Origin: Haloferax volcanii DS2
GTDB lineage: Archaea; Halobacteriota; Halobacteria; Halobacteriales; Haloferacaceae
Length of the DNA: 32,000 nt
Assembly (NCBI RefSeq): GCF_000025685.1
Contig: NC_013967.1
Location: 180,001 to 212,000, forward strand
Direction: 5' to 3'
Under the pieces are notes generated by a model. The model was not told the origin of the DNA, ran no database searches, and worked only from the letters and a program-made list of their open reading frames with translations. Below are positions 19,368 to 27,373 of the stretch, one piece after another. Position 1 is the stretch's first letter. Every line of letters starts with the position of its first letter. A program made the translations under genes and the position numbers.

Positions 19368-21476
19368 ATGGCGCAGGCCCCCCAGAACCGAGACCTGACG
19401 GAACGGTTCATCGAGTTCTACCGAAACTACTACCGAGAGGAGATCGGGACGCTCGCACAGCAGTACCCGAAGGAAAAGCGGTCGCTGCACATCGATTACG
19501 ACGACCTCTATCGGTTCGATTCGGAACTCGCGGACGACTACATCACGAAGCCCGGCCAGTTCCAGGAGTACGCGGAGGAGGCGCTGCGCCTGTTCGACCT
19601 CCCCGCGGACGTGAAACTCGGGCAGGCGCACGTCCGGATGCGAAACCTCCCCGAGACGGTCGATATCCGGAACCTCAGGGTCAACGACGACCACATCGGG
19701 ACGCTCATCTCGGTGCAGGGCATCGTCCGGAAGGCGACCGACGTGCGTCCGAAAATCACGGAAGCCGCCTTCGAGTGCCAGCGCTGCGGGACGATGAGCT
19801 ACATCCCGCAGGGCGACGGCGGCTTTCAGGAACCCCACGAGTGTCAGGGATGCGAGCGCCAGGGGCCGTTCCGCATCGACTTCGACCAGTCGAACTTCGT
19901 CGACTCACAGAAACTGCGCGTCCAGGAGTCCCCCGAGGGCCTGCGCGGGGGCGAGACGCCGCAGAGCATCGACATCAACCTCTCCGACGACGTGACCGGC
20001 AAGGTCACCGCCGGCGACCACGTCACCGTCGTCGGCGTCCTCCACATCGAACAGCAGACATCGGGCAACGAGAAGACGCCCGTCTTCGACTACTACATGG
20101 AAGGCATCTCGCTCACCATCGAGGACGAGGAGTTCGAGGACATGGAGATATCCGACGAGGACGTGGCCGAAATCGTCGAACTCTCGAACGACCCGGCCAT
20201 CTACGAGAAGATGGTCGAGTCCGTCGCGCCCGCCATCTACGGCTACGAGCAGGAGAAGATTGCCATGATTCTCCAACTGTTCTCGGGCGTCACGAAACAC
20301 CTGCCCGACGGCTCGCGGATTCGCGGCGACCTGCACATGCTGTTGATAGGGGACCCCGGAACTGGCAAATCGCAGATGTTATCATATATCAGACATATTG
20401 CGCCCCGCTCGGTCTACACCTCCGGCAAGGGTTCGTCCTCGGCAGGTCTCACCGCCGCCGCCGTCCGCGACGACTTCGGCGACGGCCAGCAGTGGACGCT
20501 CGAAGCCGGCGCGCTCGTCCTCGCGGACAAGGGTATCGCGGCGGTCGACGAACTGGACAAGATGCGGCCCGAAGACCGCTCTGCGATGCACGAGGGGCTC
20601 GAACAACAGCAGATTTCGGTCTCCAAGGCCGGCATCAACGCGACGCTCAAGTCGCGGTGTTCGCTCCTCGGCGCGGCGAACCCGAAGTACGGCCGCTTCG
20701 ACCAGTACGAACCCATCGGCGAGCAGATAGACCTCGAACCCGCGCTCATCTCGCGGTTCGACCTCATCTTCACGGTCACGGACGACCCCGACCCCGACGA
20801 GGACTCCAAGCTCGCGGACCACATCCTCAAGACCAACTACGCGGGCGAGCTGAACACCCAGCGGACGAACGTCGCCAACTCCGAGTTCACGGAACAGCAG
20901 GTCGACGCCGTCACCGACGAGGTCGCGCCCACCATCGACGCGGACCTGCTCCGCAAGTACATCGCCTACGCGAAGCGCACCTGCTACCCGACGATGACCG
21001 ACGAGGCGAAGGAGGTCATCCGCGACTTCTACGTCGACTTCCGCGCCCGCGGTGCCGACGAGGACGCGCCCGTTCCCGTGACCGCCCGGAAGCTCGAAGC
21101 GCTCGTCCGCCTCGGCGAGGCCTCGGCCCGCGTCCGCCTCTCGGACAAGGTGACTCGCGAGGACGCAGAGCGCGTCACGGGCATCGTCGAGTCCTGCCTG
21201 CGAGACATCGGCATGGACCCAGAGACCGGCGAGTTCGACGCCGACATCGTCGAGACGGGCCGTTCGAAGACCCAGCGCGACCGCATCAAGAACCTGCTCG
21301 AACTCATCCGCACCATGCAGGAGGAGTACGAGGAGGGCGCGCCCCACGAGGAGGTCCTCGAACGCGCCAACAGCGAACTGAACATGGACGAAAAGACGGT
21401 CAACGACCAGCTTGACAAGCTGAAGATGAAAGGCGACATCTACGAGCCCCGCGGCGACGTGTACCGCGCGACTTGA
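19368..21476 (+). CDS. mcm: Minichromosome maintenance (MCM) replicative helicase, 702 aa, intein-free
   Basis: ATG at 19368, in frame with ORF 18693..21476. The zinc motif is CQRCG...CQGCE, Walker A is GDPGTGKSQ, Walker B is AAVDELDKM and the arginine finger is SRFDLIF. A C-terminal wHTH is present. Confidence 0.95.
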   Translation: MAQAPQNRDLTERFIEFYRNYYREEIGTLAQQYPKEKRSLHIDYDDLYRFDSELADDYITKPGQFQEYAEEALRLFDLPADVKLGQAHVRMRNLPETVDIRNLRVNDDHIGTLISVQGIVRKATDVRPKITEAAFECQRCGTMSYIPQGDGGFQEPHECQGCERQGPFRIDFDQSNFVDSQKLRVQESPEGLRGGETPQSIDINLSDDVTGKVTAGDHVTVVGVLHIEQQTSGNEKTPVFDYYMEGISLTIEDEEFEDMEISDEDVAEIVELSNDPAIYEKMVESVAPAIYGYEQEKIAMILQLFSGVTKHLPDGSRIRGDLHMLLIGDPGTGKSQMLSYIRHIAPRSVYTSGKGSSSAGLTAAAVRDDFGDGQQWTLEAGALVLADKGIAAVDELDKMRPEDRSAMHEGLEQQQISVSKAGINATLKSRCSLLGAANPKYGRFDQYEPIGEQIDLEPALISRFDLIFTVTDDPDPDEDSKLADHILKTNYAGELNTQRTNVANSEFTEQQVDAVTDEVAPTIDADLLRKYIAYAKRTCYPTMTDEAKEVIRDFYVDFRARGADEDAPVPVTARKLEALVRLGEASARVRLSDKVTREDAERVTGIVESCLRDIGMDPETGEFDADIVETGRSKTQRDRIKNLLELIRTMQEEYEEGAPHEEVLERANSELNMDEKTVNDQLDKLKMKGDIYEPRGDVYRAT

Positions 21477-21576
21477 GCCGTCCTCGGCTGCTGCGCCCGC
21501 CCGTCAGCGACTCGGCTTCGATTCCGCGCGGAACCGACGAACTTAGTGGAGCGTGCGCTGAGGGGACAGACGACCG

Positions 21577-21879
21577 ATGGACCGAATCTCCGCCATCCGC
21601 AACATCGAAGACGCCATCCGCGACCTCGAATCGGGGGACGCGGACCTCGCCAGCACCGAGCAGCGCGTCGTGACCGTGCTCCGGACGTTCGCCACGGAGT
21701 TCGAAGACGACGCCGGCGACGGGACGCTCGACGCGTGGACGGCCGTCGGCGACGACCGCGCCGAGGGACTTGTCGTCCTCGCCGCCGACGCCGACGACGC
21801 GCGGGCGCGGGTCAGAGACTTACTCGACGAGGCGACCGGCGACGCCGACGACGTGACGTTCTCGGTCGAGCGCGTCTGA
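21577..21879 (+). CDS. Small acidic hypothetical protein, 100 aa
   Basis: ATG at 21577. It has high GC3 and an acidic composition (MDRISAIRNIEDAIRDLESGDADL...). I recognise no family. Confidence 0.5.
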   Translation: MDRISAIRNIEDAIRDLESGDADLASTEQRVVTVLRTFATEFEDDAGDGTLDAWTAVGDDRAEGLVVLAADADDARARVRDLLDEATGDADDVTFSVERV

Positions 21880-22029
21880 GACGACCGCCGCGGGGATTCG
21901 GAATCGGATTCGACGACCGCACGCTTCTGCCGTCGCCGTCACCGTCTCCGCCACCCATTGGTGTCATATAGCTGACCGGAGGGCGACGCGGTCGAACGAT
22001 TTTTCTTTCGACTCCGTGACCGGTCGTGC

Positions 22030-22368
22030 GTGTTGTTGGTCGTGACCTATTCGCAGGCGGCGCGGACGACGCTTCGGAACATCTGCCGGACCCACGACGA
22101 GGTCGTAGTCCGTCAGTTGGGTCGCGCCGCGCTGTTCGACGAGACGGAGTTGGCCGCCTTCCTCGCGCTTCGGCTTCGGGAGAAACACGACGAAGACGTT
22201 CAAATCGAGCAAACCCAGCCGTTCAACGAGTTCGCGGCCGTCCCCGATGCGGTCCGCGAGGCCGCGGCCGCCTACGAGGACCGCGAGTCGCCGGCGACGC
22301 CGTACAGCAAGTTCGCCTCGGGGACCGACCACCCGTCGGCCGCCGAGATGCAGCGCCGCGAGCTATGA
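22030..22368 (+). CDS. Hypothetical protein, 112 aa, first gene of the MinD-associated module
   Basis: A GTG start at 22030 is the first possible start after the in-frame TGA at 21973. The protein is (M)LLVVTYSQAARTTLRNICRTHDEVVVRQLGRAALFDETELAAFLALRL... Its stop overlaps the next ATG (ATGA, 22365-22368). The antisense ORF 21964..22332 is Arg-rich. Confidence 0.55.
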   Translation: MLLVVTYSQAARTTLRNICRTHDEVVVRQLGRAALFDETELAAFLALRLREKHDEDVQIEQTQPFNEFAAVPDAVREAAAAYEDRESPATPYSKFASGTDHPSAAEMQRREL

Positions 22369-23306
22369 GGCTCCGATTGCCCGACGGAACCGCCGTCGAG
22401 GGGCGAGCTATCGACCTCGCCAGCGACTCGGTCGCTGTCGACGCCGACGAGGTCGTCGCCGCGATACGAGCGGACGGGAGAGCCGACGCGCCGGGCGCGG
22501 TCCGAATCGACTGCTCGTCGCCCGGCCCCGGCCACGACCGACTCGGCAGAGTTCCCGTTTCGGACCCGGCCCCGTCCCGCGGGTGGCTCCTCGCGGCAGT
22601 CGGGCGGTCCCGCGGCCGCCGCGCTCCCGTCGCCGACGACCTCGACCGACTCGAAGCGAAACTCGCGGAGCACCGCGACCGTGCGGCCGGGGAGTCGAAT
22701 GCGGACGACCCCGAGCGCGTCGACACGTCCGCGGCCGCGCTCCGCCAGGCCCGCCACCGCGTCGCCGCCGCCGGAGAAGACGAGTCTCGGCTCAGAGAGC
22801 GCGTCGCGACCCTCCGCGGACGGGTGAACGCCCACCGCGACGCCGGCGACGACGAGGCGACCGCGGCGGCCCGACAGGAGCTCGTGGAGGCGGCGACGGA
22901 ACTCTCGGAAGTCGAAACAGAACGCGTCGCGGCCGAACAGCGGCTGTCGGCGCTCGAACAGGCGAGCCGAGCCGAACGAGACAGGCGGGACGCGAGACTC
23001 AAACTCGAAGACGCGGTCGAGAACCGCCGCCGAGACGCGCGGGCGTACTTCGCGGCCGAACTCGGAGCGGAGTTCGAAGCGGCGCTCCGAGACCTCGCGT
23101 CGCTCCCGGCTGCGGCGACTCCGGCGGTCGACTCGCCACCTGTGCCGCCCGCCCCCGAATCAGACCCCGTCGCGCGCTCGCTGGCCGCCGTTCGCCTCGC
23201 CGACCTGTCCGCCCCGGTCGTCCTCTCGTGCGGCCGGTTTTCGGACGCCGAGGCCGCGGCGGACTGGCTCGGCGCGCCGGTCGTTCGGTGTTCTCCCTCC
23301 GATTGA
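22365..23306 (+). CDS. Hypothetical coiled-coil protein, 313 aa
   Basis: ATG at 22365 overlaps the upstream stop. The N-terminal globular part (MRLRLPDGTAVEGRAIDL...) is followed by a long Arg/Glu/Ala-rich helical segment (LRERVATLRGRV...ERVAAEQRLSALEQASRAERDRRDARLKLEDAVENRRRDA). A small C-terminal domain follows (APVVLSCGRFSDAEAAADWLGAPVV). Confidence 0.6.
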   Translation: MRLRLPDGTAVEGRAIDLASDSVAVDADEVVAAIRADGRADAPGAVRIDCSSPGPGHDRLGRVPVSDPAPSRGWLLAAVGRSRGRRAPVADDLDRLEAKLAEHRDRAAGESNADDPERVDTSAAALRQARHRVAAAGEDESRLRERVATLRGRVNAHRDAGDDEATAAARQELVEAATELSEVETERVAAEQRLSALEQASRAERDRRDARLKLEDAVENRRRDARAYFAAELGAEFEAALRDLASLPAAATPAVDSPPVPPAPESDPVARSLAAVRLADLSAPVVLSCGRFSDAEAAADWLGAPVVRCSPSD

Positions 23307-23327
23307 CGGGGCCGCTCCGGGCGTTGA

Positions 23328-23335
23328 TTTATATA
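23328..23335 (+). promoter_or_regulatory. TATA box (TTTATATA) centred 27 bp upstream of the ATG at 23358
   Basis: A strong consensus-like box in the 51-bp gap. It implies that the last two genes of the module have their own, leaderless promoter. Confidence 0.6.
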
Positions 23336-23357
23336 CGAAGCGGCGGCCAACCCCGCC

Positions 23358-24212
23358 ATGCACTCCGATATCGACGTGAGCGCGGACGACGGCGTCGCCC
23401 TCGTCTCGGTCCGAGTCGACAACGACGCGCCGGTCGACCGACGCGTCAGGCTTCGCAACCGCCTCGACGGCCCGGTGCTTCCGCCGCGTCGCGCCGGCGT
23501 CCCCGAACCCGGCTGGGACAACGAGGGCTTCGAAGGCGTCGTTCCCGCGGGTTCGACGGTCGCGCTCGGCTACGCCGTTCCCCTATCGCCGCCGGGCGAC
23601 CGTGACGCCGAGGCTGTCGACGCCGACGGCCTCCCGGAGCACGCGGTCGATGTCGAGACGCTCGGCCGCGCCGACGAGTCGGACGAGGCCGCCGATTCGA
23701 CGCCCGAGGGCGCGATTCGGTCGCTCGGCTCGGCGCGGCCGCCGGCCGACGCGGTTCCCGTTTCTGCTGACCCGCCGCCGACGGTCTCCGCGCCGGAGAC
23801 GCCCGAGTCAGCTCCCGACACCGCCGGCGACGAACGCCCCGACCCGCTTCCGCGACCCGACCCCGACGCCGCCGGCGGCGAACGTTCCACTCCGTCCGAG
23901 CAGCCGACGGACGCCGACGTGTCGGCGGCGGTCGAGACGCGCGAGCCGCGCGACCACGAGACCCAGCGGCCATCGGAGCCGGCGTCTCTCGCGGCCGTCG
24001 AGCGTCGTATCGACCTCGCTGAGCGGCTGGACGGCGCGTCGGTCGCGGACGCCGCGGCGGCGCTCTCGGAGGCCGAACGCGGCGTTGAGGCGCTCGAATC
24101 GCTCGACGCGGACCGCGAACGCCTTCGTCGATTGGCGGCGCGCGCGACCGCGCTCGCGGACCGCGCGGCCGACGCCGACCCCGACGTGGACGCGCTCCGG
24201 AGGCTCGCGTGA
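23358..24212 (+). CDS. Hypothetical protein, 284 aa: N-terminal beta-rich domain, acidic/Pro-rich disordered linker, C-terminal helical tail
   Basis: The N-terminus is MHSDIDVSADDGVALVSVRVDNDAPVDRRVRLRNRLDGPVLPP...VALGYAVPL. A ~110-aa low-complexity D/E/P/A/S linker follows, then AAVERRIDLAERL...ERLRRLAARATALADRAADA. The stop overlaps the MinD GTG (GTGA, 24209-24212). Confidence 0.6.
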   Translation: MHSDIDVSADDGVALVSVRVDNDAPVDRRVRLRNRLDGPVLPPRRAGVPEPGWDNEGFEGVVPAGSTVALGYAVPLSPPGDRDAEAVDADGLPEHAVDVETLGRADESDEAADSTPEGAIRSLGSARPPADAVPVSADPPPTVSAPETPESAPDTAGDERPDPLPRPDPDAAGGERSTPSEQPTDADVSAAVETREPRDHETQRPSEPASLAAVERRIDLAERLDGASVADAAAALSEAERGVEALESLDADRERLRRLAARATALADRAADADPDVDALRRLA

Positions 24213-24871
24213 TTCTCGCGGTCGTCTCCGGGAAGGGCGGCGTCGGGAAGTCGACGCTGTCGTTCGAACTCGCGGCGGAACTGGGGTCGGTCGTCGTGGA
24301 CGCGGACCTCGGAATGGCGAACCTTCCGTACGCGCCCGGTCCCGACCTCCACGACGTGCTCGCGGGTCGGGCCGACCCGCTCGAAGCCGTCCGCTCGGGC
24401 GGGCCGGTCTCGATACTCCCGTGCGGGCGGACGCTCGCCGGCGCGCGGGCGGCCGACACGCGCCTCCTCGCCGACGCGCTTCACGCGGTCGAAGCGGCCT
24501 ACGGCGACGTGGTCGTGGACTGCCCCGCCGGGATGCGCGCCGATGCGGGCGTCCCGCTCGCCGTCGCCGACGCCTGCGTCGTGGTCGCGTCACCGAAGGG
24601 CTACGCGCTGGCCGACGCGGTTCGAACCCGCGAGCTGGCGCGCGAACTCGGCTGCGGGCTCGCCGCCGTCGCGGTCAACCGCGTCGTCGACGCGGTGCCG
24701 CTGGACGCCTTCGCCGACGTGCTCGGCGCGCCGGCGACGGGGATTCCCGCGGACTCGCGGCTGGCCGAGGCGGTCGAGCGGTTCGAGCCGGTCGTCGCGT
24801 CGTCGCCGGAGAGCCTTCCCAGTGCTCGGATTCGGGAACTCGCGGACGCGGTCCGGGTGAGCGGTCGGTAG
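24209..24871 (+). CDS. minD: MinD/ParA-family P-loop ATPase (deviant Walker A), 220 aa
   Basis: The protein has (M)ILAVVSGKGGVGKSTLSFELA (KGGxGK[ST] with the signature lysine), VVVDADLGMANL (switch I) and VVVDCPAG (Walker B). No obvious C-terminal amphipathic membrane-targeting helix is present. From memory, H. volcanii minD1 occupies this position relative to mcm (unverified). Confidence 0.85.
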   Translation: MILAVVSGKGGVGKSTLSFELAAELGSVVVDADLGMANLPYAPGPDLHDVLAGRADPLEAVRSGGPVSILPCGRTLAGARAADTRLLADALHAVEAAYGDVVVDCPAGMRADAGVPLAVADACVVVASPKGYALADAVRTRELARELGCGLAAVAVNRVVDAVPLDAFADVLGAPATGIPADSRLAEAVERFEPVVASSPESLPSARIRELADAVRVSGR

Positions 24872-24964
24872 AAGCGTCGTCTCGTCTTCGGTTCGTTCGC
24901 GAAACAGCGGTTCAGCTCTGGCGTCGTCGTCGCCGTCGGTCAGTGACGGTCGCAGTCTCGCGGC

Positions 24965-25831
24965 TCACTCGCGGAGCGCCACGTACGTCTTGCGGAGCGT
25001 CACGGGCGTCACGTCGGCTACGTCGGCGGCCTCGGCCTGCGTGCAGTCCTCGCCGCGGTCGGACGCGGCGGTGTAGAGACACGCCGCGGCGACGCCGCAG
25101 GGGTTCTTGCCGCCCACGAGCCCCTCGTCGCGGGCCTCGGCGACGTACTCGCGCGCCCGGCGTTCGGTGTCGCTGTCGAGGTCGAGCTTGGTCGCGAACC
25201 GCGGCAGGTACTCGGTCGGGTCGGCGGGCGCGACGGGGAGGCCGAGGTCGCGGTTGAGCGCGCCGTAGGCCGCTTGGTGCTCCGCCTCCGTAGCCTTCGA
25301 CACGTCGCAGACCTCCTCGACGCTCCGGGAGACGCCGGCGACGCGGCAGGCGGCGTAGACGCAGGCCGCGGCGAACCCTTCGAGCGAGCGGCCGCGCAGG
25401 AGGTCTTCGTTCTGGGCGGACTCGAACAGCGAACACGCCTGGTCGCGGATGTGGTTCGGCAGCGACAGCGCGCTCGTCACGCGGCGAATCTCGGTGAAGG
25501 CGTACACCTGATTGCGCTCGCGCTTGGTCGAGATGCGGGCGCGGTTGTGCTGGCGGCGCATGCGGGCGAACTGCCGGCGCTTGCGGCCCTTGATACGCGT
25601 CGAGCGGCCGATTTCGGTCGACAGGCCGCGGTCGTGCCGCGAGCGGGTGAGCGGCGCGCCGGTCCGAGCGGGGTTGCGGTCGTCGTCGGCGAACGAGCGC
25701 CACTCGGGGCCGTGGTCGATGCGGTACTCCGAGACGACGAGACCGCAGTCGGTACAGACCGTCTCGCCGGCTTCGAAACCGAGGTGTCCATCGCATTCGG
25801 GGCAACCCTGGGGGGAGCGTGCTTCACTCAT
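24965..25831 (-). CDS. tfb: Transcription initiation factor IIB (TFB) paralogue, 288 aa
   Basis: ATG at 25829-25831; the track start 25834 is GTG. The N-terminal Zn ribbon is CPECDGHLGFEAGETVCTDCG. The B-reader/linker is GPEWRSF...RTGAP, followed by two cyclin-like repeats (AACVYAACR..., AAACLYTAA...VTPVTLRKTY). Confidence 0.9.
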   Translation of the reverse strand: MSEARSPQGCPECDGHLGFEAGETVCTDCGLVVSEYRIDHGPEWRSFADDDRNPARTGAPLTRSRHDRGLSTEIGRSTRIKGRKRRQFARMRRQHNRARISTKRERNQVYAFTEIRRVTSALSLPNHIRDQACSLFESAQNEDLLRGRSLEGFAAACVYAACRVAGVSRSVEEVCDVSKATEAEHQAAYGALNRDLGLPVAPADPTEYLPRFATKLDLDSDTERRAREYVAEARDEGLVGGKNPCGVAAACLYTAASDRGEDCTQAEAADVADVTPVTLRKTYVALRE

Positions 25832-25858
25832 CACAATTGAAAATCGGTCCCGAACGGG

Positions 25859-25993: not shown

Positions 25994-26515
25994 ATGGGGT
26001 TGTCAGAAATCGCCGCCGCGTTAGAGACGACGACGACTGAACAGCGTTCGCGCTGTGTCCCGACCGTCGATGACACCGATGTTTCCCTCCGCGAGCGCTT
26101 CGAGGCGCACGCAGACGCGCTCCCCTGTGCGCCTGCGGCAGCGGAACGGGTTGTCGAAGCACACGGGTCTGGCACGTCGGTCGGAGCCAGCGCGCGCGAC
26201 GCAGGCGTCGCTCCCGTCACGGCGGCGAAGCTCTTGCACCGTTGCGGCGAAGCGGGCGTGACCCCCCTCGCACCCGAGGCGCGACGCATCGTCCGCGATT
26301 GGATCGACGGGCGCATCTCGCGCGCCGACGCGCTCGCGCTCACCGGCGCGGAGCCGTCGGAGTTCGCCCTCGCAACGTACGTCGAGACACACGACCCCAT
26401 CGACCCCCTCGTCGAAGCCGTCGAGGGCGCGCTGGCCGACCGCACCGACGCGGCCGTCGCCAAGCGCGACTCGCTGGCCGAGACCATGAGCTCGGTCACC
26501 GATATGCAGTTCTGA
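25994..26515 (+). CDS. Conserved hypothetical protein, 173 aa, with two HTH-like segments
   Basis: ATG at 25994. SVGASARDAGVAPVTAAKLLHRCG and ISRADALALTGAEPSEFALATYV look like helix-turn-helix units. The protein has high GC3 and an acidic composition. A T4 tract (26541-26545) follows the stop. Confidence 0.55.
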   Translation: MGLSEIAAALETTTTEQRSRCVPTVDDTDVSLRERFEAHADALPCAPAAAERVVEAHGSGTSVGASARDAGVAPVTAAKLLHRCGEAGVTPLAPEARRIVRDWIDGRISRADALALTGAEPSEFALATYVETHDPIDPLVEAVEGALADRTDAAVAKRDSLAETMSSVTDMQF

Positions 26516-26629: not shown

Positions 26630-27373
26630 TCAGCGACGGACGTACTCGCTGACCGAGCCGAGGACGCCGTCGGTGGCAGCCACGGCGTCGATTTCGATGT
26701 CGAGAAGCACCTCCGCGACCGCGGCGACGCCCGCCGCGAGCTCGGCGTCTTCGCGGCACGCCGGCGCGTCGGCGAGGCCGGTCGCCTCGGTCTCGGGCAC
26801 GACCACGTCCGCGTCGTCGAGCGCGCCGAACGTGGAGACGACGGCGTCGATATCGGTGTCGATGTCGGCGGCCCGCGCACTGAGCCGACCGACCGCGTCG
26901 GCACCGCGGTCCGTGGCGGGCGCGACGAGCGCGACCCGGTCGCAGGCCGCGGCGGCGGCGACCGTCTGGTTCGACGCGAGGAGCGGCGCGTCGACGAGGA
27001 CGTGGTCGAAGCCGTCTGCGGCCTCGGCGATACGACCTTCGAACGCCCGCGCGGCGTCGGGCGTCATCGCCCGCGCGAGCCGCTCGAAGGGGGCCGCGGC
27101 CGGGCAGACGGCGACGCGTCCCTCGGCGTCGGTCTCGAACGCGACCAGCCCCGACTCCAGCGGCACGTCGGCGGCGTCGGTGACAAGCGCCGTCGCGTCG
27201 GGGTCGAGCGTCCCCGAAACGTAGTCTGAGAGGCCCTGCGTGGCGAACGCCGCGTCGAGGACGGCCACGTCGCGGCCGTCGGTCGCGAGCGCTGCGGCGA
27301 GTTCGAGCGACAGTCGGGTCGTGCCCGCGCCGCCGGTGGCCCCGACGAGCGCGATGGTGGTGGGAATGGACAT
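26630..27373 (-). CDS. ParA/MinD-fold protein with a degenerate P-loop (both Walker-A lysines replaced), 247 aa
   Basis: MSIPTTIALVGATGGAGTTRLSLELAAAL aligns residue for residue with the neighbouring MinD, ILAVVSGKGGVGKSTLSFELAAEL. KGG is replaced by TGG and GKS by GTT. A Walker-B-like HVLVDAP is retained. Its own TATA (minus strand TATTAAT, 27397-27403) lies 27 bp upstream. Confidence 0.65.
   Translation of the reverse strand: MSIPTTIALVGATGGAGTTRLSLELAAALATDGRDVAVLDAAFATQGLSDYVSGTLDPDATALVTDAADVPLESGLVAFETDAEGRVAVCPAAAPFERLARAMTPDAARAFEGRIAEAADGFDHVLVDAPLLASNQTVAAAAACDRVALVAPATDRGADAVGRLSARAADIDTDIDAVVSTFGALDDADVVVPETEATGLADAPACREDAELAAGVAAVAEVLLDIEIDAVAATDGVLGSVSEYVRR

What the first reader, a model, noticed from the sequence alone, without database searches (positions are those of the whole stretch)
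22030..24871. Uncharacterised four-gene module ending in a MinD/ParA ATPase, built as two translationally coupled pairs
Four same-strand genes lie directly downstream of mcm. They form two tight pairs.

- A 112-aa protein and a 313-aa coiled-coil protein share an ATGA stop/start overlap at 22365-22368.
- After a 51-bp gap carrying a strong TATA (TTTATATA, 27 bp upstream of the ATG), a 284-aa protein and a canonical deviant-Walker-A MinD/ParA ATPase share a GTGA overlap at 24209-24212.

The 284-aa protein has a beta-rich N-domain, an acidic/proline-rich disordered linker of about 110 aa, and a helical C-tail.

MinD/ParA ATPases always work with partner or adaptor proteins (MinE/MinC, ParB, SegB, cargo adaptors). 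Here the three co-encoded proteins match no family I can name. The coupling geometry argues for stoichiometric co-production. A coiled-coil protein, a linker-plus-tail protein and a ParA-like ATPase are the ingredients of a positioning or segregation machine. I am not aware of one being described for this gene set.
Basis: partly seen in the sequence, partly recalled or inferred. Interest (0 to 1): 0.7.

Follow-up and report, generated by a model that had tools for sequence, protein, structure and literature searches.

The report
Haloarchaeal MinD1 gene cluster beside mcm
Next to the replicative helicase gene of Haloferax volcanii lie two conserved, tightly coupled gene pairs of unknown function, one of which joins the unstudied ATPase MinD1 to a likely partner protein, giving a concrete lead to what MinD1 does.

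Summary
The window is Haloferax volcanii DS2 chromosome 180001-212000, and the four genes are HVO_0222 to HVO_0225 (MinD1).

- **Sequence features.** One correction: a fifth gene, HVO_0221 (DUF7854), lies between mcm and the module.
- **Conservation.** In 47 loci from more than 20 haloarchaeal genera the order mcm-DUF7854-DUF7855-DUF7856-DUF7857-MinD1 is kept, while the outer flanks differ. The DUF7857/MinD1 overlap is kept in 45 of 47 loci. AT-rich boxes precede only the first gene of each pair.
- **The three partners.** They match only Pfam DUF families and no solved structure. AlphaFold2 models show an SMC-shaped protein without Walker motifs (HVO_0223). HVO_0224 is a beta-sandwich, a disordered linker and a helical bundle.
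- **Limits.** Two divergent lineages keep DUF7855-DUF7856 beside mcm but lack DUF7857-MinD1, so the four genes are two units, not one obligate machine. Published dRNA-seq lists no TSS here, and a minD1 deletion has no reported phenotype.

Best reading: HVO_0224 is MinD1's cognate partner, and HVO_0222/0223 form a separate scaffold linked to mcm. Function is untested. I rate it a new variant of a known kind, of moderate interest.

The parts
19368..21476 (+). mcm (HVO_0220), 702 aa and intein-free. It anchors the conserved block.
   Evidence: ORF and translation. Pfam MCM domains in orthologous loci. It lies upstream of the module in all 47 loci.
21577..21879 (+). HVO_0221, DUF7854, 100 aa. It pairs with mcm rather than with the four-gene module.
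   Evidence: Pfam DUF7854, E=1.2e-33. Its start lies -1 to +5 nt from the mcm stop in 32 of 46 loci. It has its own TSS at chr 201572 in H. volcanii.
21999..22008 (+). AT-rich, TATA-like box ATTTTTCTTT, at -31 to -22 from the GTG of HVO_0222.
   Evidence: Sequence. An AT-rich 8-mer at -45 to -15 occurs in 37 of 46 orthologous loci, against a 2.1% background.
22030..22368 (+). HVO_0222, DUF7855, 112 aa. A small, very highly conserved protein and the first gene of pair 1.
   Evidence: Pfam DUF7855, E=2e-58. Identity is 62-89% across genera and mean column identity is 78%. An exhaustive profile search finds only 26 clusters at 50% identity, and every named member is haloarchaeal. No PDB sequence match.
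22365..23306 (+). HVO_0223, DUF7856, 313 aa. Its N- and C-terminal segments form a globular head that carries a long antiparallel coiled coil. It has no Walker A or B motif. Its start overlaps the HVO_0222 stop (ATGA).
   Evidence: Pfam DUF7856, E=6.6e-99. AlphaFold2 model with pLDDT 92.6. The best PDB fold match is an Smc head with coiled coil, 5xei, but E=0.046 is not significant. The alignment shows no GxxGxGK[ST]. A start codon giving the -4 overlap is available in 30 of 41 loci; where the start was placed reliably, the other junctions are -1 to a few nt. The protein was detected by mass spectrometry.
23328..23335 (+). TATA box TTTATATA, at -30 to -23 from the ATG of HVO_0224. This spacing fits a leaderless transcript.
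   Evidence: Sequence. An AT-rich 8-mer starts at -34 to -29 in 26 of 46 loci. The same test gives 0 of 46 before MinD1 and 1 of 45 before DUF7856. No TSS is listed in the dRNA-seq table.
23343..23349 (+). GC-rich box GCGGCCA between the TATA box and the start codon. It is conserved in many genera; its role is unknown.
   Evidence: Upstream sequences from several genera.
23358..24212 (+). HVO_0224, 284 aa. N-terminal beta-sandwich (DUF7857, aa 1-104); conserved motif R-x-L-G-x-x-R-P-P (aa 121-129); acidic, proline-rich disordered linker; C-terminal helical bundle (DUF8080, aa 207-283) that in many genera ends in ALRRLA.
   Evidence: Pfam DUF7857, E=9e-48. PF26296 (DUF8080) in homologues. AlphaFold2 model. 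Foldseek returns only generic Ig-like, CBM or MSP sandwiches, with E of 0.005 or higher. Alignments and motif counts.
24209..24871 (+). minD1 (HVO_0225), 220 aa. A deviant-Walker-A MinD/ParA ATPase without a C-terminal membrane-targeting helix. Its GTG start overlaps the HVO_0224 stop (GTGA).
   Evidence: NCBIfam minD_arch, E=6e-35, 120.6 bits, below the 201.75 cut-off. The best PDB matches are archaeal MinD structures 1hyq, 1g3q and 1ion. GKGGVGK[ST]T, D31/D33, GPDLHDVL, LPCGR and DCPAG are invariant or nearly so in 23 aligned orthologues. The RTGA overlap is kept in 45 of 47 loci.
24965..25834 (-). tfb paralogue (HVO_0226), convergent with minD1. It is the usual downstream boundary of the block.
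   Evidence: Pfam TFIIB and Zn_Ribbon_TF. It is present in most loci but is separated from MinD1 by two ABC-transporter genes in Halosimplex.

Best explanation
The locus holds two separate, conserved, two-gene operons that lie beside mcm in Halobacteria.

**Pair 2 (HVO_0224 + MinD1): shown.**
- MinD1 keeps every catalytic and dimerisation motif of a deviant-Walker-A ATPase.
- It has no membrane-targeting helix.
- It is translated from a start codon that overlaps the stop codon of HVO_0224 in almost every genome examined.

**Pair 2: inferred.**
- HVO_0224 is MinD1's cognate partner. It would bind the ATP-bound MinD1 dimer, probably stimulate or gate ATP hydrolysis, and tie MinD1 to a cargo or surface.
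- The contact could be the conserved R-x-L-G-x-x-R-P-P motif (aa 121-129) or the ALRRLA tail.
- The Ig-like beta-sandwich and the helical bundle, joined by a flexible acidic linker, would hold the cargo or surface.

**Pair 1 (HVO_0222 + HVO_0223): shown.** It consists of a very conserved small protein and an SMC-shaped protein with a head and a coiled-coil hairpin but no ATPase motifs. It is always next to mcm, including in lineages without MinD1.

**Pair 1: inferred.** It is a non-enzymatic scaffold. It could be MinD1's cargo or landmark, or an independent unit tied to mcm.

**Overall (inferred).** Together this would be a Halobacteria-specific variant of a ParA/MinD-type, ATP-driven positioning system with new accessory proteins. 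Its target is unknown. Given the mcm linkage, the target may be the replisome or the nucleoid.
For: - **Identity and architecture.**
- **Synteny.** All 47 loci from more than 20 genera keep the gene order. These include Haloferax, Halorubrum, Haloplanus, Halobellus, Halolamina, Halorussus, Halorientalis, Halosimplex and Halobacterium. The flanks outside mcm and tfb differ between them.
- **Coupling.** The RTGA overlap of DUF7857 and MinD1 is kept in 45 of 47 loci. A DUF7855-to-DUF7856 start giving the -4 overlap is available in 30 of 41 loci, and the other reliably placed junctions are -1 to a few nt (and the gene calls).
- **Promoters.** Promoter-like AT boxes occur only before DUF7855 (37 of 46) and DUF7857 (26 of 46). 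They are absent before DUF7856 (1 of 45) and MinD1 (0 of 46); background is 2.1%.
- **MinD1.** The catalytic motifs are invariant and there is no membrane-targeting sequence. The literature agrees that MinD1 lacks one.
- **Structure models.**
- **No characterised homologue.**
- **Separability of the pairs.**
- **Specificity.** Eighty unrelated MinD/ParA loci from metagenomes carry no DUF7855, DUF7856 or DUF7857 neighbours.
- **General knowledge.** ParA/MinD ATPases generally need a partner that accelerates hydrolysis (as stated).
Against: - No interaction was tested.
- A crude mirror-tree analysis gave no excess co-evolution between the DUF7857 N-domain and MinD1. The partial correlation was 0.00, against 0.41 for DUF7856-DUF7857 and 0.35 for DUF7855-DUF7856.
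- The minD1 single deletion and the quadruple minD deletion showed wild-type growth, size, shape and FtsZ-ring position. The quadruple mutant's motility matched that of the minD2/4 double mutant.
- The dRNA-seq table lists no TSS for HVO_0222 to HVO_0226.
- Only HVO_0223 of the four appears in one proteome table, so expression under laboratory conditions seems low.
- The DUF8080 domain and the ALRRLA tail are missing in some genera, including Halobacterium, Halorussus and Halobellus.
- I did not test whether MinD1-clade genes ever occur without DUF7857.
- No DNA-binding domain and no centromere-like repeats were found.
Confidence: 0.5

Rival explanations
1. All four proteins form one stoichiometric machine: MinD1 ATPase, the HVO_0224 adaptor, the HVO_0223 coiled-coil scaffold and the small subunit HVO_0222. 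The machine positions or segregates a single cargo.
For: - All four genes sit side by side in the same order in 47 of 47 loci.
- The make-up resembles ParA-type systems that use coiled-coil scaffolds.
- The largest, still modest, partial rate correlation is between DUF7856 and DUF7857 (0.41).
Against: - Two lineages keep DUF7855 and DUF7856 beside mcm without DUF7857 and MinD1.
- The pairs have separate promoter-like boxes and are never overlapped.
- In one genome an opposite-strand gene splits them.
Confidence: 0.22
2. The pairs are functionally unrelated neighbours. Their order reflects an inherited arrangement around the essential mcm gene and carries no functional meaning. MinD1 works with other MinD paralogues on motility, cell shape or CetZ positioning, not on anything linked to mcm.
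For: - Synteny also extends to opposite-strand genes with no obvious relation: tfb, DUF7858 and HVO_0228.
- The characterised paralogues MinD2 and MinD4 act on motility, cell shape and CetZ1.
- Rate co-variation between DUF7857 and MinD1 is zero.
Against: - The flanks outside the block are different in each family examined, while the block is intact.
- The stop/start overlaps and the promoter spacing are conserved at nucleotide level across genera.
- Deleting all four minD genes reduced motility no further than the minD2/4 double deletion.
Confidence: 0.18
3. The module is a decaying or conditionally silent remnant in Haloferax, with little present-day function.
For: - No TSS was detected.
- Proteomic detection is sparse.
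- The minD1 deletion has no phenotype.
- One metagenomic lineage shows frameshifted or fragmentary copies.
Against: - All five reading frames are intact and conserved in 47 loci.
- DUF7855 is 62-89% identical across genera.
- The catalytic residues of MinD1 are invariant.
- Overlaps and promoter boxes are maintained.

This pattern requires purifying selection.
Confidence: 0.05

Closest known systems
Archaeal MinD proteins of Haloferax volcanii (MinD4/HVO_0322, MinD2/HVO_0595 with its neighbour HVO_0596)
   Same: - They belong to the same ATPase family in the same organism.
- They carry a deviant Walker A.
- They are not needed for FtsZ-ring placement.
- MinD2 also has a co-transcribed small neighbour proposed as a partner.
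   Different: - MinD4 has a long C-terminal extension with a membrane-targeting sequence, oscillates, and positions archaella and chemosensory arrays.
- MinD1 has no membrane-targeting sequence, no known localisation and no phenotype.
- MinD1's partner candidates (DUF7857/DUF8080, DUF7855, DUF7856) are unrelated to HVO_0596.
- MinD1's gene is fixed next to mcm rather than next to motility genes.
Bacterial MinCDE system
   Same: A deviant-Walker-A MinD ATPase is encoded in an operon with partner proteins, and the partner is expected to control ATP hydrolysis.
   Different: - There is no MinC or MinE homologue in the locus.
- There is no amphipathic membrane-targeting helix.
- MinD1 is dispensable for division-site placement.
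- MinD1 scores below the curated cut-offs of both the minD_arch and minD_bact models.
ParA-type cargo-positioning systems with scaffold or adaptor partners (PomXYZ of Myxococcus, McdAB of carboxysomes); the comparison rests on my own knowledge
   Same: - A ParA/MinD ATPase works with coiled-coil or disordered adaptor proteins of lineage-specific families.
- The adaptors carry a short peptide that activates the ATPase.
   Different: - There is no sequence or fold relationship to PomX, PomY or McdB.
- Nucleoid binding by MinD1 has not been shown.
- The cargo is unknown.
ParABS and archaeal SegAB DNA segregation systems
   Same: A Walker-type ATPase gene sits in a two-gene cassette with a partner gene. 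The position beside a replication gene suggests a DNA-related role.
   Different: - No HTH, RHH or ParB-like DNA-binding domain was detected in HVO_0222, HVO_0223 or HVO_0224.
- There are no centromere-like repeats nearby.
- The gene order is partner first, then ATPase.
SMC, Rad50 and Sph SMC-like proteins
   Same: In the HVO_0223 model, the N- and C-terminal segments form a head from which a long antiparallel coiled coil projects. The top PDB fold match is an Smc head with coiled coil.
   Different: - It has only 313 aa.
- It has no Walker A, Walker B or signature motif.
- It has no hinge domain.
- The fold match is not significant (E=0.046).
- The NCBIfam SMC and ASRP hits are restricted to the coiled coil and lie far below the cut-offs.
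- The UniProt label 'SMC-like protein Sph4' on an orthologue is wrong, because Sph4 is HVO_B0173.

Membership tests
ParA/MinD (deviant Walker A, SIMIBI) ATPases - for HVO_0225 | Deviant Walker A xKGGxxGK[ST] with the N-terminal signature lysine | tested here: met
   SGKGGVGKST at aa 7-16. It is invariant in 23 aligned orthologues.
ParA/MinD (deviant Walker A, SIMIBI) ATPases - for HVO_0225 | Switch I aspartates and a Walker B aspartate in a hydrophobic strand | tested here: met
   D31 and D33 (VVVDADLGM) and D104 (VVVDCPAG) are invariant. The protein aligns along its full length with the archaeal MinD structures 1hyq and 1g3q.
Archaeal MinD subfamily (NCBIfam TIGR01969 minD_arch) - for HVO_0225 | Score at or above the curated cut-off of the family model | tested here: not met
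   The score is 120.6 bits against a cut-off of 201.75. It is still the best-scoring family, with E=6e-35. MinD1 is therefore a divergent relative, which NCBI names only 'P-loop NTPase'.
Min system (MinCDE) | C-terminal amphipathic membrane-targeting helix on MinD | tested here: not met
   The orthologues end 5-10 residues after the last conserved helix, and their tails are variable and not amphipathic. The literature also says MinD1 has no clear membrane-targeting sequence.
Min system (MinCDE) | Co-encoded MinC and/or MinE | tested here: not met
   Pfam and NCBIfam scans of all neighbouring genes return only DUF families.
Min system (MinCDE) | Role in placing the division ring | not testable with these tools
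   According to the literature, the minD1 single and the quadruple minD deletions keep the FtsZ1 ring at mid-cell.
ParABS / SegAB partition cassettes | Partner protein with a site-specific DNA-binding domain (ParB HTH, RHH or SegB) | tested here: not met
   No such domain was found in HVO_0222, HVO_0223 or HVO_0224 by Pfam, NCBIfam or PDB profile searches. No structure model was made for HVO_0222, so a cryptic DNA-binding fold is not excluded.
ParABS / SegAB partition cassettes | Centromere-like repeats next to the cassette | tested here: not met
   Only low-identity, GC-rich matches typical of coding sequence occur in 21450-25000.
SMC/Rad50-type ABC ATPases - for HVO_0223 | Walker A, Walker B and signature motifs in the head | tested here: not met
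   The alignment of 36 homologues shows C-P-x-P-x-P-V-H where a P-loop would sit, and A-P-V-V-L without the acidic pair.
SMC/Rad50-type ABC ATPases - for HVO_0223 | Head formed by the N and C termini, with an intramolecular antiparallel coiled coil | tested here: inconclusive
Pfam DUF7855 / DUF7856 / DUF7857 + DUF8080 | Score above the Pfam gathering threshold | tested here: met
   The scores are 196, 331.5 and 162.3 bits, against cut-offs of 27, 30.2 and 27. PF26296 (DUF8080) is recorded on the homologues.

The most novel reading that the evidence does not exclude
Halobacteria possess a lineage-specific machine, driven by a ParA/MinD ATPase, that is functionally tied to the replicative MCM helicase. 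MinD1 and its adaptor HVO_0224 would move or position replisomes or sister chromosome copies on a scaffold. The scaffold would be built from the ATPase-dead, SMC-shaped HVO_0223 and the small protein HVO_0222. That would be a DNA-organising system for polyploid archaea with no counterpart in bacteria or other archaea.
Probability: 0.15. Interest if true: 0.85.

Novelty: new variant of a known kind. Interest (0 to 1): 0.55.

Why it matters
MinD1 is one of four MinD paralogues in the main archaeal cell-biology model. Its function, partners and cargo are all undescribed, and no MinE-like regulator is known for any archaeal MinD.

This analysis gives a specific candidate partner, HVO_0224, with defined regions to mutate. 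It also identifies a second conserved pair, and shows an invariant position beside mcm.

Together these turn an open question into a short list of experiments. How polyploid haloarchaea organise or distribute their chromosomes and replisomes is also unresolved, and this locus is a reasonable place to look.

Tried and rejected
- **Metagenome scan with a MinD1 alignment.** It was meant to test whether MinD1-clade genes occur without DUF7857. The generic Walker-A pattern swamped it, and it returned only MinD/ParA relatives of 24-37% identity. It served only to show that such distant relatives lack the three partner families. The reverse co-occurrence test remains undone.
- **No structure model for HVO_0222.** A profile search of the PDB found nothing.
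- **Mirror-tree rate correlation among the five proteins.** Signals were weak and inconclusive.
- **'SMC-like protein Sph4' label on a DUF7856 orthologue.** Rejected, because Sph4 is HVO_B0173.
- **Defence-system or phage origin.** Rejected. PADLOC gave only coiled-coil noise to JetC, and PHROGs matched only a generic ParA family for MinD1.
- **Partition cassette with a centromere.** No repeats were found.
- **Transcript and protein evidence.**
  - The dRNA-seq table lists no TSS for HVO_0222 to HVO_0226.
  - The supplements of the mixed RNA-seq paper do not mention the genes.
  - One proteome table lists only HVO_0223.
- **Membrane association.** None of the proteins has a hydrophobic segment.
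- The alignment contained locus-derived sequences.

Full report
**Origin and gene map.**
All six proteins I looked up match Haloferax volcanii DS2 entries exactly. The ParA-like gene at 26630-27373 carries the STRING identifier HVO_0228. The published TSS of HVO_0221 at chromosome position 201572, with its start codon at 201577, corresponds to window position 21577, so window coordinate = chromosome coordinate minus 180000.

The map is:
- mcm (HVO_0220), 19368-21476
- HVO_0221, 21577-21879
- HVO_0222, 22030-22368
- HVO_0223, 22365-23306
- HVO_0224, 23358-24212
- minD1 (HVO_0225), 24209-24871
- tfb (HVO_0226), convergent, 24965-25834

The name minD1 follows Nussbaum et al..

**Check of the observation.**
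- The reading frames, the ATGA overlap at 22365-22368, the GTGA overlap at 24209-24212 and the 51-nt gap are as described.
- TTTATATA lies at 23328-23335, 30 to 23 nt before the ATG.
- MinD1 has the deviant Walker A SGKGGVGKST.
- One inaccuracy: the four genes are not directly downstream of mcm, because the 100-aa gene HVO_0221 lies between.

**What the proteins are.**
- Pfam assigns HVO_0221 to HVO_0224 to the consecutive families DUF7854, DUF7855, DUF7856 and DUF7857. All score far above threshold. Homologues of HVO_0224 also carry DUF8080 at the C terminus.
- NCBIfam has no model for them. Its only hits are coiled-coil noise far below the cut-offs.
- Profile searches of all PDB sequences find nothing for DUF7855, DUF7856 or DUF7857.
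- PADLOC and PHROGs give no defence or viral assignment.
- MinD1 is closest to the solved archaeal MinD proteins 1hyq, 1g3q and 1ion. It scores 120.6 bits against the archaeal MinD model, whose cut-off is 201.75, so it is a divergent MinD relative.

**Structure models.**

*HVO_0223* (36-sequence alignment, pLDDT 92.6):
- The N-terminal segment (aa 1-88) and the C-terminal segment (aa 267-313) are mixed alpha/beta.
- Helices 90-111, 118-160 and 163-245 run out and back as a hairpin.
- The top PDB match is an Smc head with coiled coil. At E=0.046 and TM 0.23 it is not significant, and most other hits are plain coiled coils.
- The alignment has no Walker A, Walker B or signature motif.
- Several invariant residues sit in the coiled coil: E145, A148 and G152, then L180 and T185, and D216, N220, R223 and R226. 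The first five lie close to the hairpin tip in the model. This suggests a specific interface there, which is my inference.
- The N-terminal head part has pI 8.0 in an otherwise acidic protein.

*HVO_0224* (79 sequences, pLDDT 79.5):
- It has a six-strand beta domain (aa 1-104), a low-confidence stretch at about aa 123-205, and a helical bundle at aa 207-283.
- The beta domain matches only generic Ig-like, carbohydrate-binding or MSP-type sandwiches, with E of 0.005 or higher.
- A short motif, R-x-L-G-x-x-R-P-P (aa 121-129), is nearly invariant. It is found in at least 36 of 46 orthologues.
- Many genera end the protein with ALRRLA, but Halobellus, Halogeometricum, Halorussus and Halobacterium do not.

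*Others:*
- None of the five proteins has a hydrophobic segment.
- I made no model of HVO_0222. It is the most conserved of the set, at 62-89% identity across genera with 30 invariant positions.

**Conservation of the arrangement.**
- A scan of one genome per GTDB species with the DUF7857 alignment returned 43 loci.
- Look-ups of homologues from Halorientalis, Halorussus, Halobacterium and Halosimplex added four more.
- All 47 have the order mcm, DUF7854, DUF7855, DUF7856, DUF7857, MinD1 (and the gene calls). In 13 of them a further gene, DUF7504/DUF7090, sits between DUF7854 and DUF7855.
- Genes upstream of mcm differ in each family examined.
- In Halosimplex two ABC-transporter genes separate MinD1 from tfb. 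In Halobacterium litoreum the region beyond tfb is unrelated.
- The block has therefore survived rearrangements on both sides.

**Conservation of the junctions.**
- The stop of DUF7857 and the start of MinD1 share RTGA in 41 of 43 scanned loci and in all four added loci. The two exceptions, L025 and L040, are places where my frame-following ran through a frameshift.
- For DUF7855 to DUF7856, a start codon giving the 4-nt overlap is available in 30 of 41 loci. Where the start was placed reliably, the remaining junctions are -1 to a few nt.
- DUF7856 and DUF7857 never share such a junction. Where the starts were placed reliably, their gap is 15-199 nt.
- The mcm stop and the DUF7854 start are -1 to +5 nt apart in 32 of 46 loci.

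**Promoters.**

I counted an 8-mer with at least 7 A/T in the interval -45 to -15 before each start codon:

| Gene | Loci with the box |
|---|---|
| DUF7855 | 37 of 46 |
| DUF7857 | 26 of 46 (start positions -34 to -29) |
| DUF7856 | 1 of 45 |
| MinD1 | 0 of 46 |
| DUF7854 | 4 of 46 |
| Random 30-nt windows of the same loci | 2.1% |

- The spacing fits leaderless transcripts, which is my inference from the usual archaeal distance between TATA box and TSS.
- A GC-rich box, GCGGCCA (23343-23349), recurs between the TATA box and the start of DUF7857 in several genera.
- Against this, the dRNA-seq table of Babski et al. lists a TSS for HVO_0221 and then none until HVO_0227. The genes are absent from the supplements of a mixed RNA-seq study. 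One proteome table lists HVO_0223 but not HVO_0221, 0222, 0224 or 0225.
- Expression in standard culture therefore seems low.

**The four genes are not an obligate unit.**
- An exhaustive profile search with DUF7855 found only 26 clusters at 50% identity. Every named member is haloarchaeal.
- Two divergent members have a different context.
  - L129 and L130 (71% GC): mcm is followed by DUF7855 and a 224-aa protein. That protein matches the N- and C-terminal head parts of the DUF7856 profile (E=1.6e-8) with a shortened coiled coil. Then come tfb, DUF7858 and the HVO_0228-like gene. DUF7854, DUF7857 and MinD1 are absent.
  - L128: mcm, DUF7854, a divergent DUF7855 and fragments of DUF7856 are followed by an unrelated gene, and tblastn finds no DUF7857 or MinD1. 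Several genes on that contig are split, so assembly errors or gene decay cannot be told apart.
- In a Haloplanus MAG a 290-aa membrane-protein gene on the opposite strand lies between DUF7856 and DUF7857.
- Pair 1 can therefore exist beside mcm without pair 2, and the pairs are separate transcription units.
- I could not test whether pair 2 lies elsewhere in those genomes. I also could not test whether MinD1-clade genes occur without DUF7857, because the metagenome scan intended for that was swamped by the generic Walker-A pattern.
- The 80 distant MinD/ParA loci that scan returned have no DUF7855, DUF7856 or DUF7857 neighbours.

**MinD1 itself.**
- In 23 aligned orthologues, GKGGVGK[ST]T, D31, D33, GPDLHDVL, LPCGR, DCPAG and N157 are invariant or nearly so.
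- The helix ALADAVRTRELAREL after the Walker B strand is strongly conserved.
- There is no C-terminal amphipathic helix.
- From my own knowledge, the corresponding helix of E. coli MinD contributes to MinC and MinE binding. I did not verify that alignment here.

**Literature.**
- MinD1's function is stated to be undescribed, and no MinE-like partner is known for archaeal MinDs.
- Single and quadruple minD deletions grow normally, with normal size, shape and FtsZ1 rings.
- The quadruple mutant's motility equals that of the minD2/4 double mutant.
- No paper in the searchable library names HVO_0222, HVO_0223, HVO_0224 or the DUFs.
- The recently described Dip oscillator is a different locus, HVO_3012 to HVO_3014.
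- The UniProt name 'SMC-like protein Sph4' on an H. lucentense DUF7856 orthologue is a mislabel, since Sph4 is HVO_B0173.

**Interpretation.**
- The strongest inference is that HVO_0224 is the cognate partner of MinD1. It rests on three points: a stop/start overlap kept across an entire class, a single promoter-like box ahead of the pair, and an ATPase that lacks its own surface-targeting element.
- Its domain make-up fits an adaptor and ATPase regulator. It has a protein-binding sandwich, a short invariant arginine-containing motif, a flexible acidic linker and a helical bundle.
- Pair 1 looks like a non-enzymatic scaffold of SMC-like shape. Its persistence beside mcm without MinD1 argues that its primary tie is to mcm or to something else, not to MinD1.
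- It remains open whether the pairs cooperate and whether the target is the replisome or the nucleoid.
- A crude mirror-tree analysis gave no support for co-evolution of DUF7857 and MinD1.
- No DNA-binding domain or centromere-like repeat was found.
- The lack of a deletion phenotype is compatible with a partition-type role in a highly polyploid organism, but equally with a minor or conditional role.

**Verdict.**
This is a genuine, conserved, uncharacterised MinD-associated locus.
- Three qualifications apply: it consists of two units rather than one, it sits within a larger mcm-anchored block, and no interaction or function has been demonstrated.
- The families are already catalogued as DUFs, and MinD1 has been named and deleted. 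The advance is the conserved architecture and a candidate partner.
- I rate it a new variant of a known kind (a ParA/MinD system with new accessory proteins), interest 0.55.

Noticed in passing
window 26630-27373 (-), HVO_0228: A second ParA-like gene lies 2 kb from minD1. Its Walker A reads GATGGAGTTR, so both lysines of KGGxxGK[ST] are replaced by threonine. Walker-A variants lacking both lysines, mostly GATGGAGTT, are kept in all 34 orthologous loci examined. It is a conserved ParA homologue with a pseudo-Walker A, probably the 'non-canonical homolog' of Nussbaum et al..
   Followed up: partly
window 21577-21879 (+), HVO_0221 / DUF7854: In 32 of 46 orthologous loci this small acidic protein starts -1 to +5 nt from the mcm stop codon. 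It is therefore a candidate mcm-coupled factor. In H. volcanii the gap is 100 nt and the gene has its own TSS.
   Followed up: partly
L044:6161-6754, L047:7016-7597, L045:6072-6701 and ten further loci: An extra gene of about 200 aa (DUF7504/DUF7090, with a weak DUF835 match and no Walker A) sits between DUF7854 and DUF7855 in 13 of 47 loci. It is absent from the window.
   Followed up: partly
L044:1565-5785, L045:1947-5630, L046:3995-7675; split MCM hits in many of L001-L043: mcm carries one or two inteins (Intein_splicing and LAGLIDADG domains) in many genera. The H. volcanii gene in the window is intein-free at 702 aa.
   Followed up: no
window 23343-23349: The GC-rich box GCGGCCA lies between the TATA box and the ATG of HVO_0224 (-15 to -9). 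It recurs at the same spacing in Haloferax, Haloplanus, Halopelagius and others. It may be a regulator site or a promoter-proximal element.
   Followed up: no
L128 (JGI contig Ga0307748_1096), 5500-9400: mcm, a DEAD-box helicase gene, DUF7855 and DUF7856 all appear split or frameshifted, and DUF7857 and MinD1 are absent. This is either an error-rich assembly or a lineage in which the block is decaying.
   Followed up: partly
L009:7025-7897 (-): A 290-aa multi-pass membrane-protein gene on the opposite strand is inserted between DUF7856 and DUF7857 in a Haloplanus MAG.
   Followed up: no
proteins P0372, P0374, P0376: Three long proteins (831-1190 aa) of unknown origin each match positions 13-38 or 1-37 of the DUF7855 profile 7 to 11 times. 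This suggests a repeat resembling that segment. Unexplained.
   Followed up: no
window 24965-25834 (-), tfb (HVO_0226), and 25994-26515 (+), HVO_0227 / DUF7858: A TFB paralogue convergent with minD1, and the DUF7858 gene, are also syntenic in most loci. The dRNA-seq table lists no TSS for this tfb.
   Followed up: no
database record of the H. lucentense DUF7856 orthologue (P0021): UniProt names it 'SMC-like protein Sph4', but the experimentally studied Sph4 is HVO_B0173. This is an annotation error that could mislead.
   Followed up: yes
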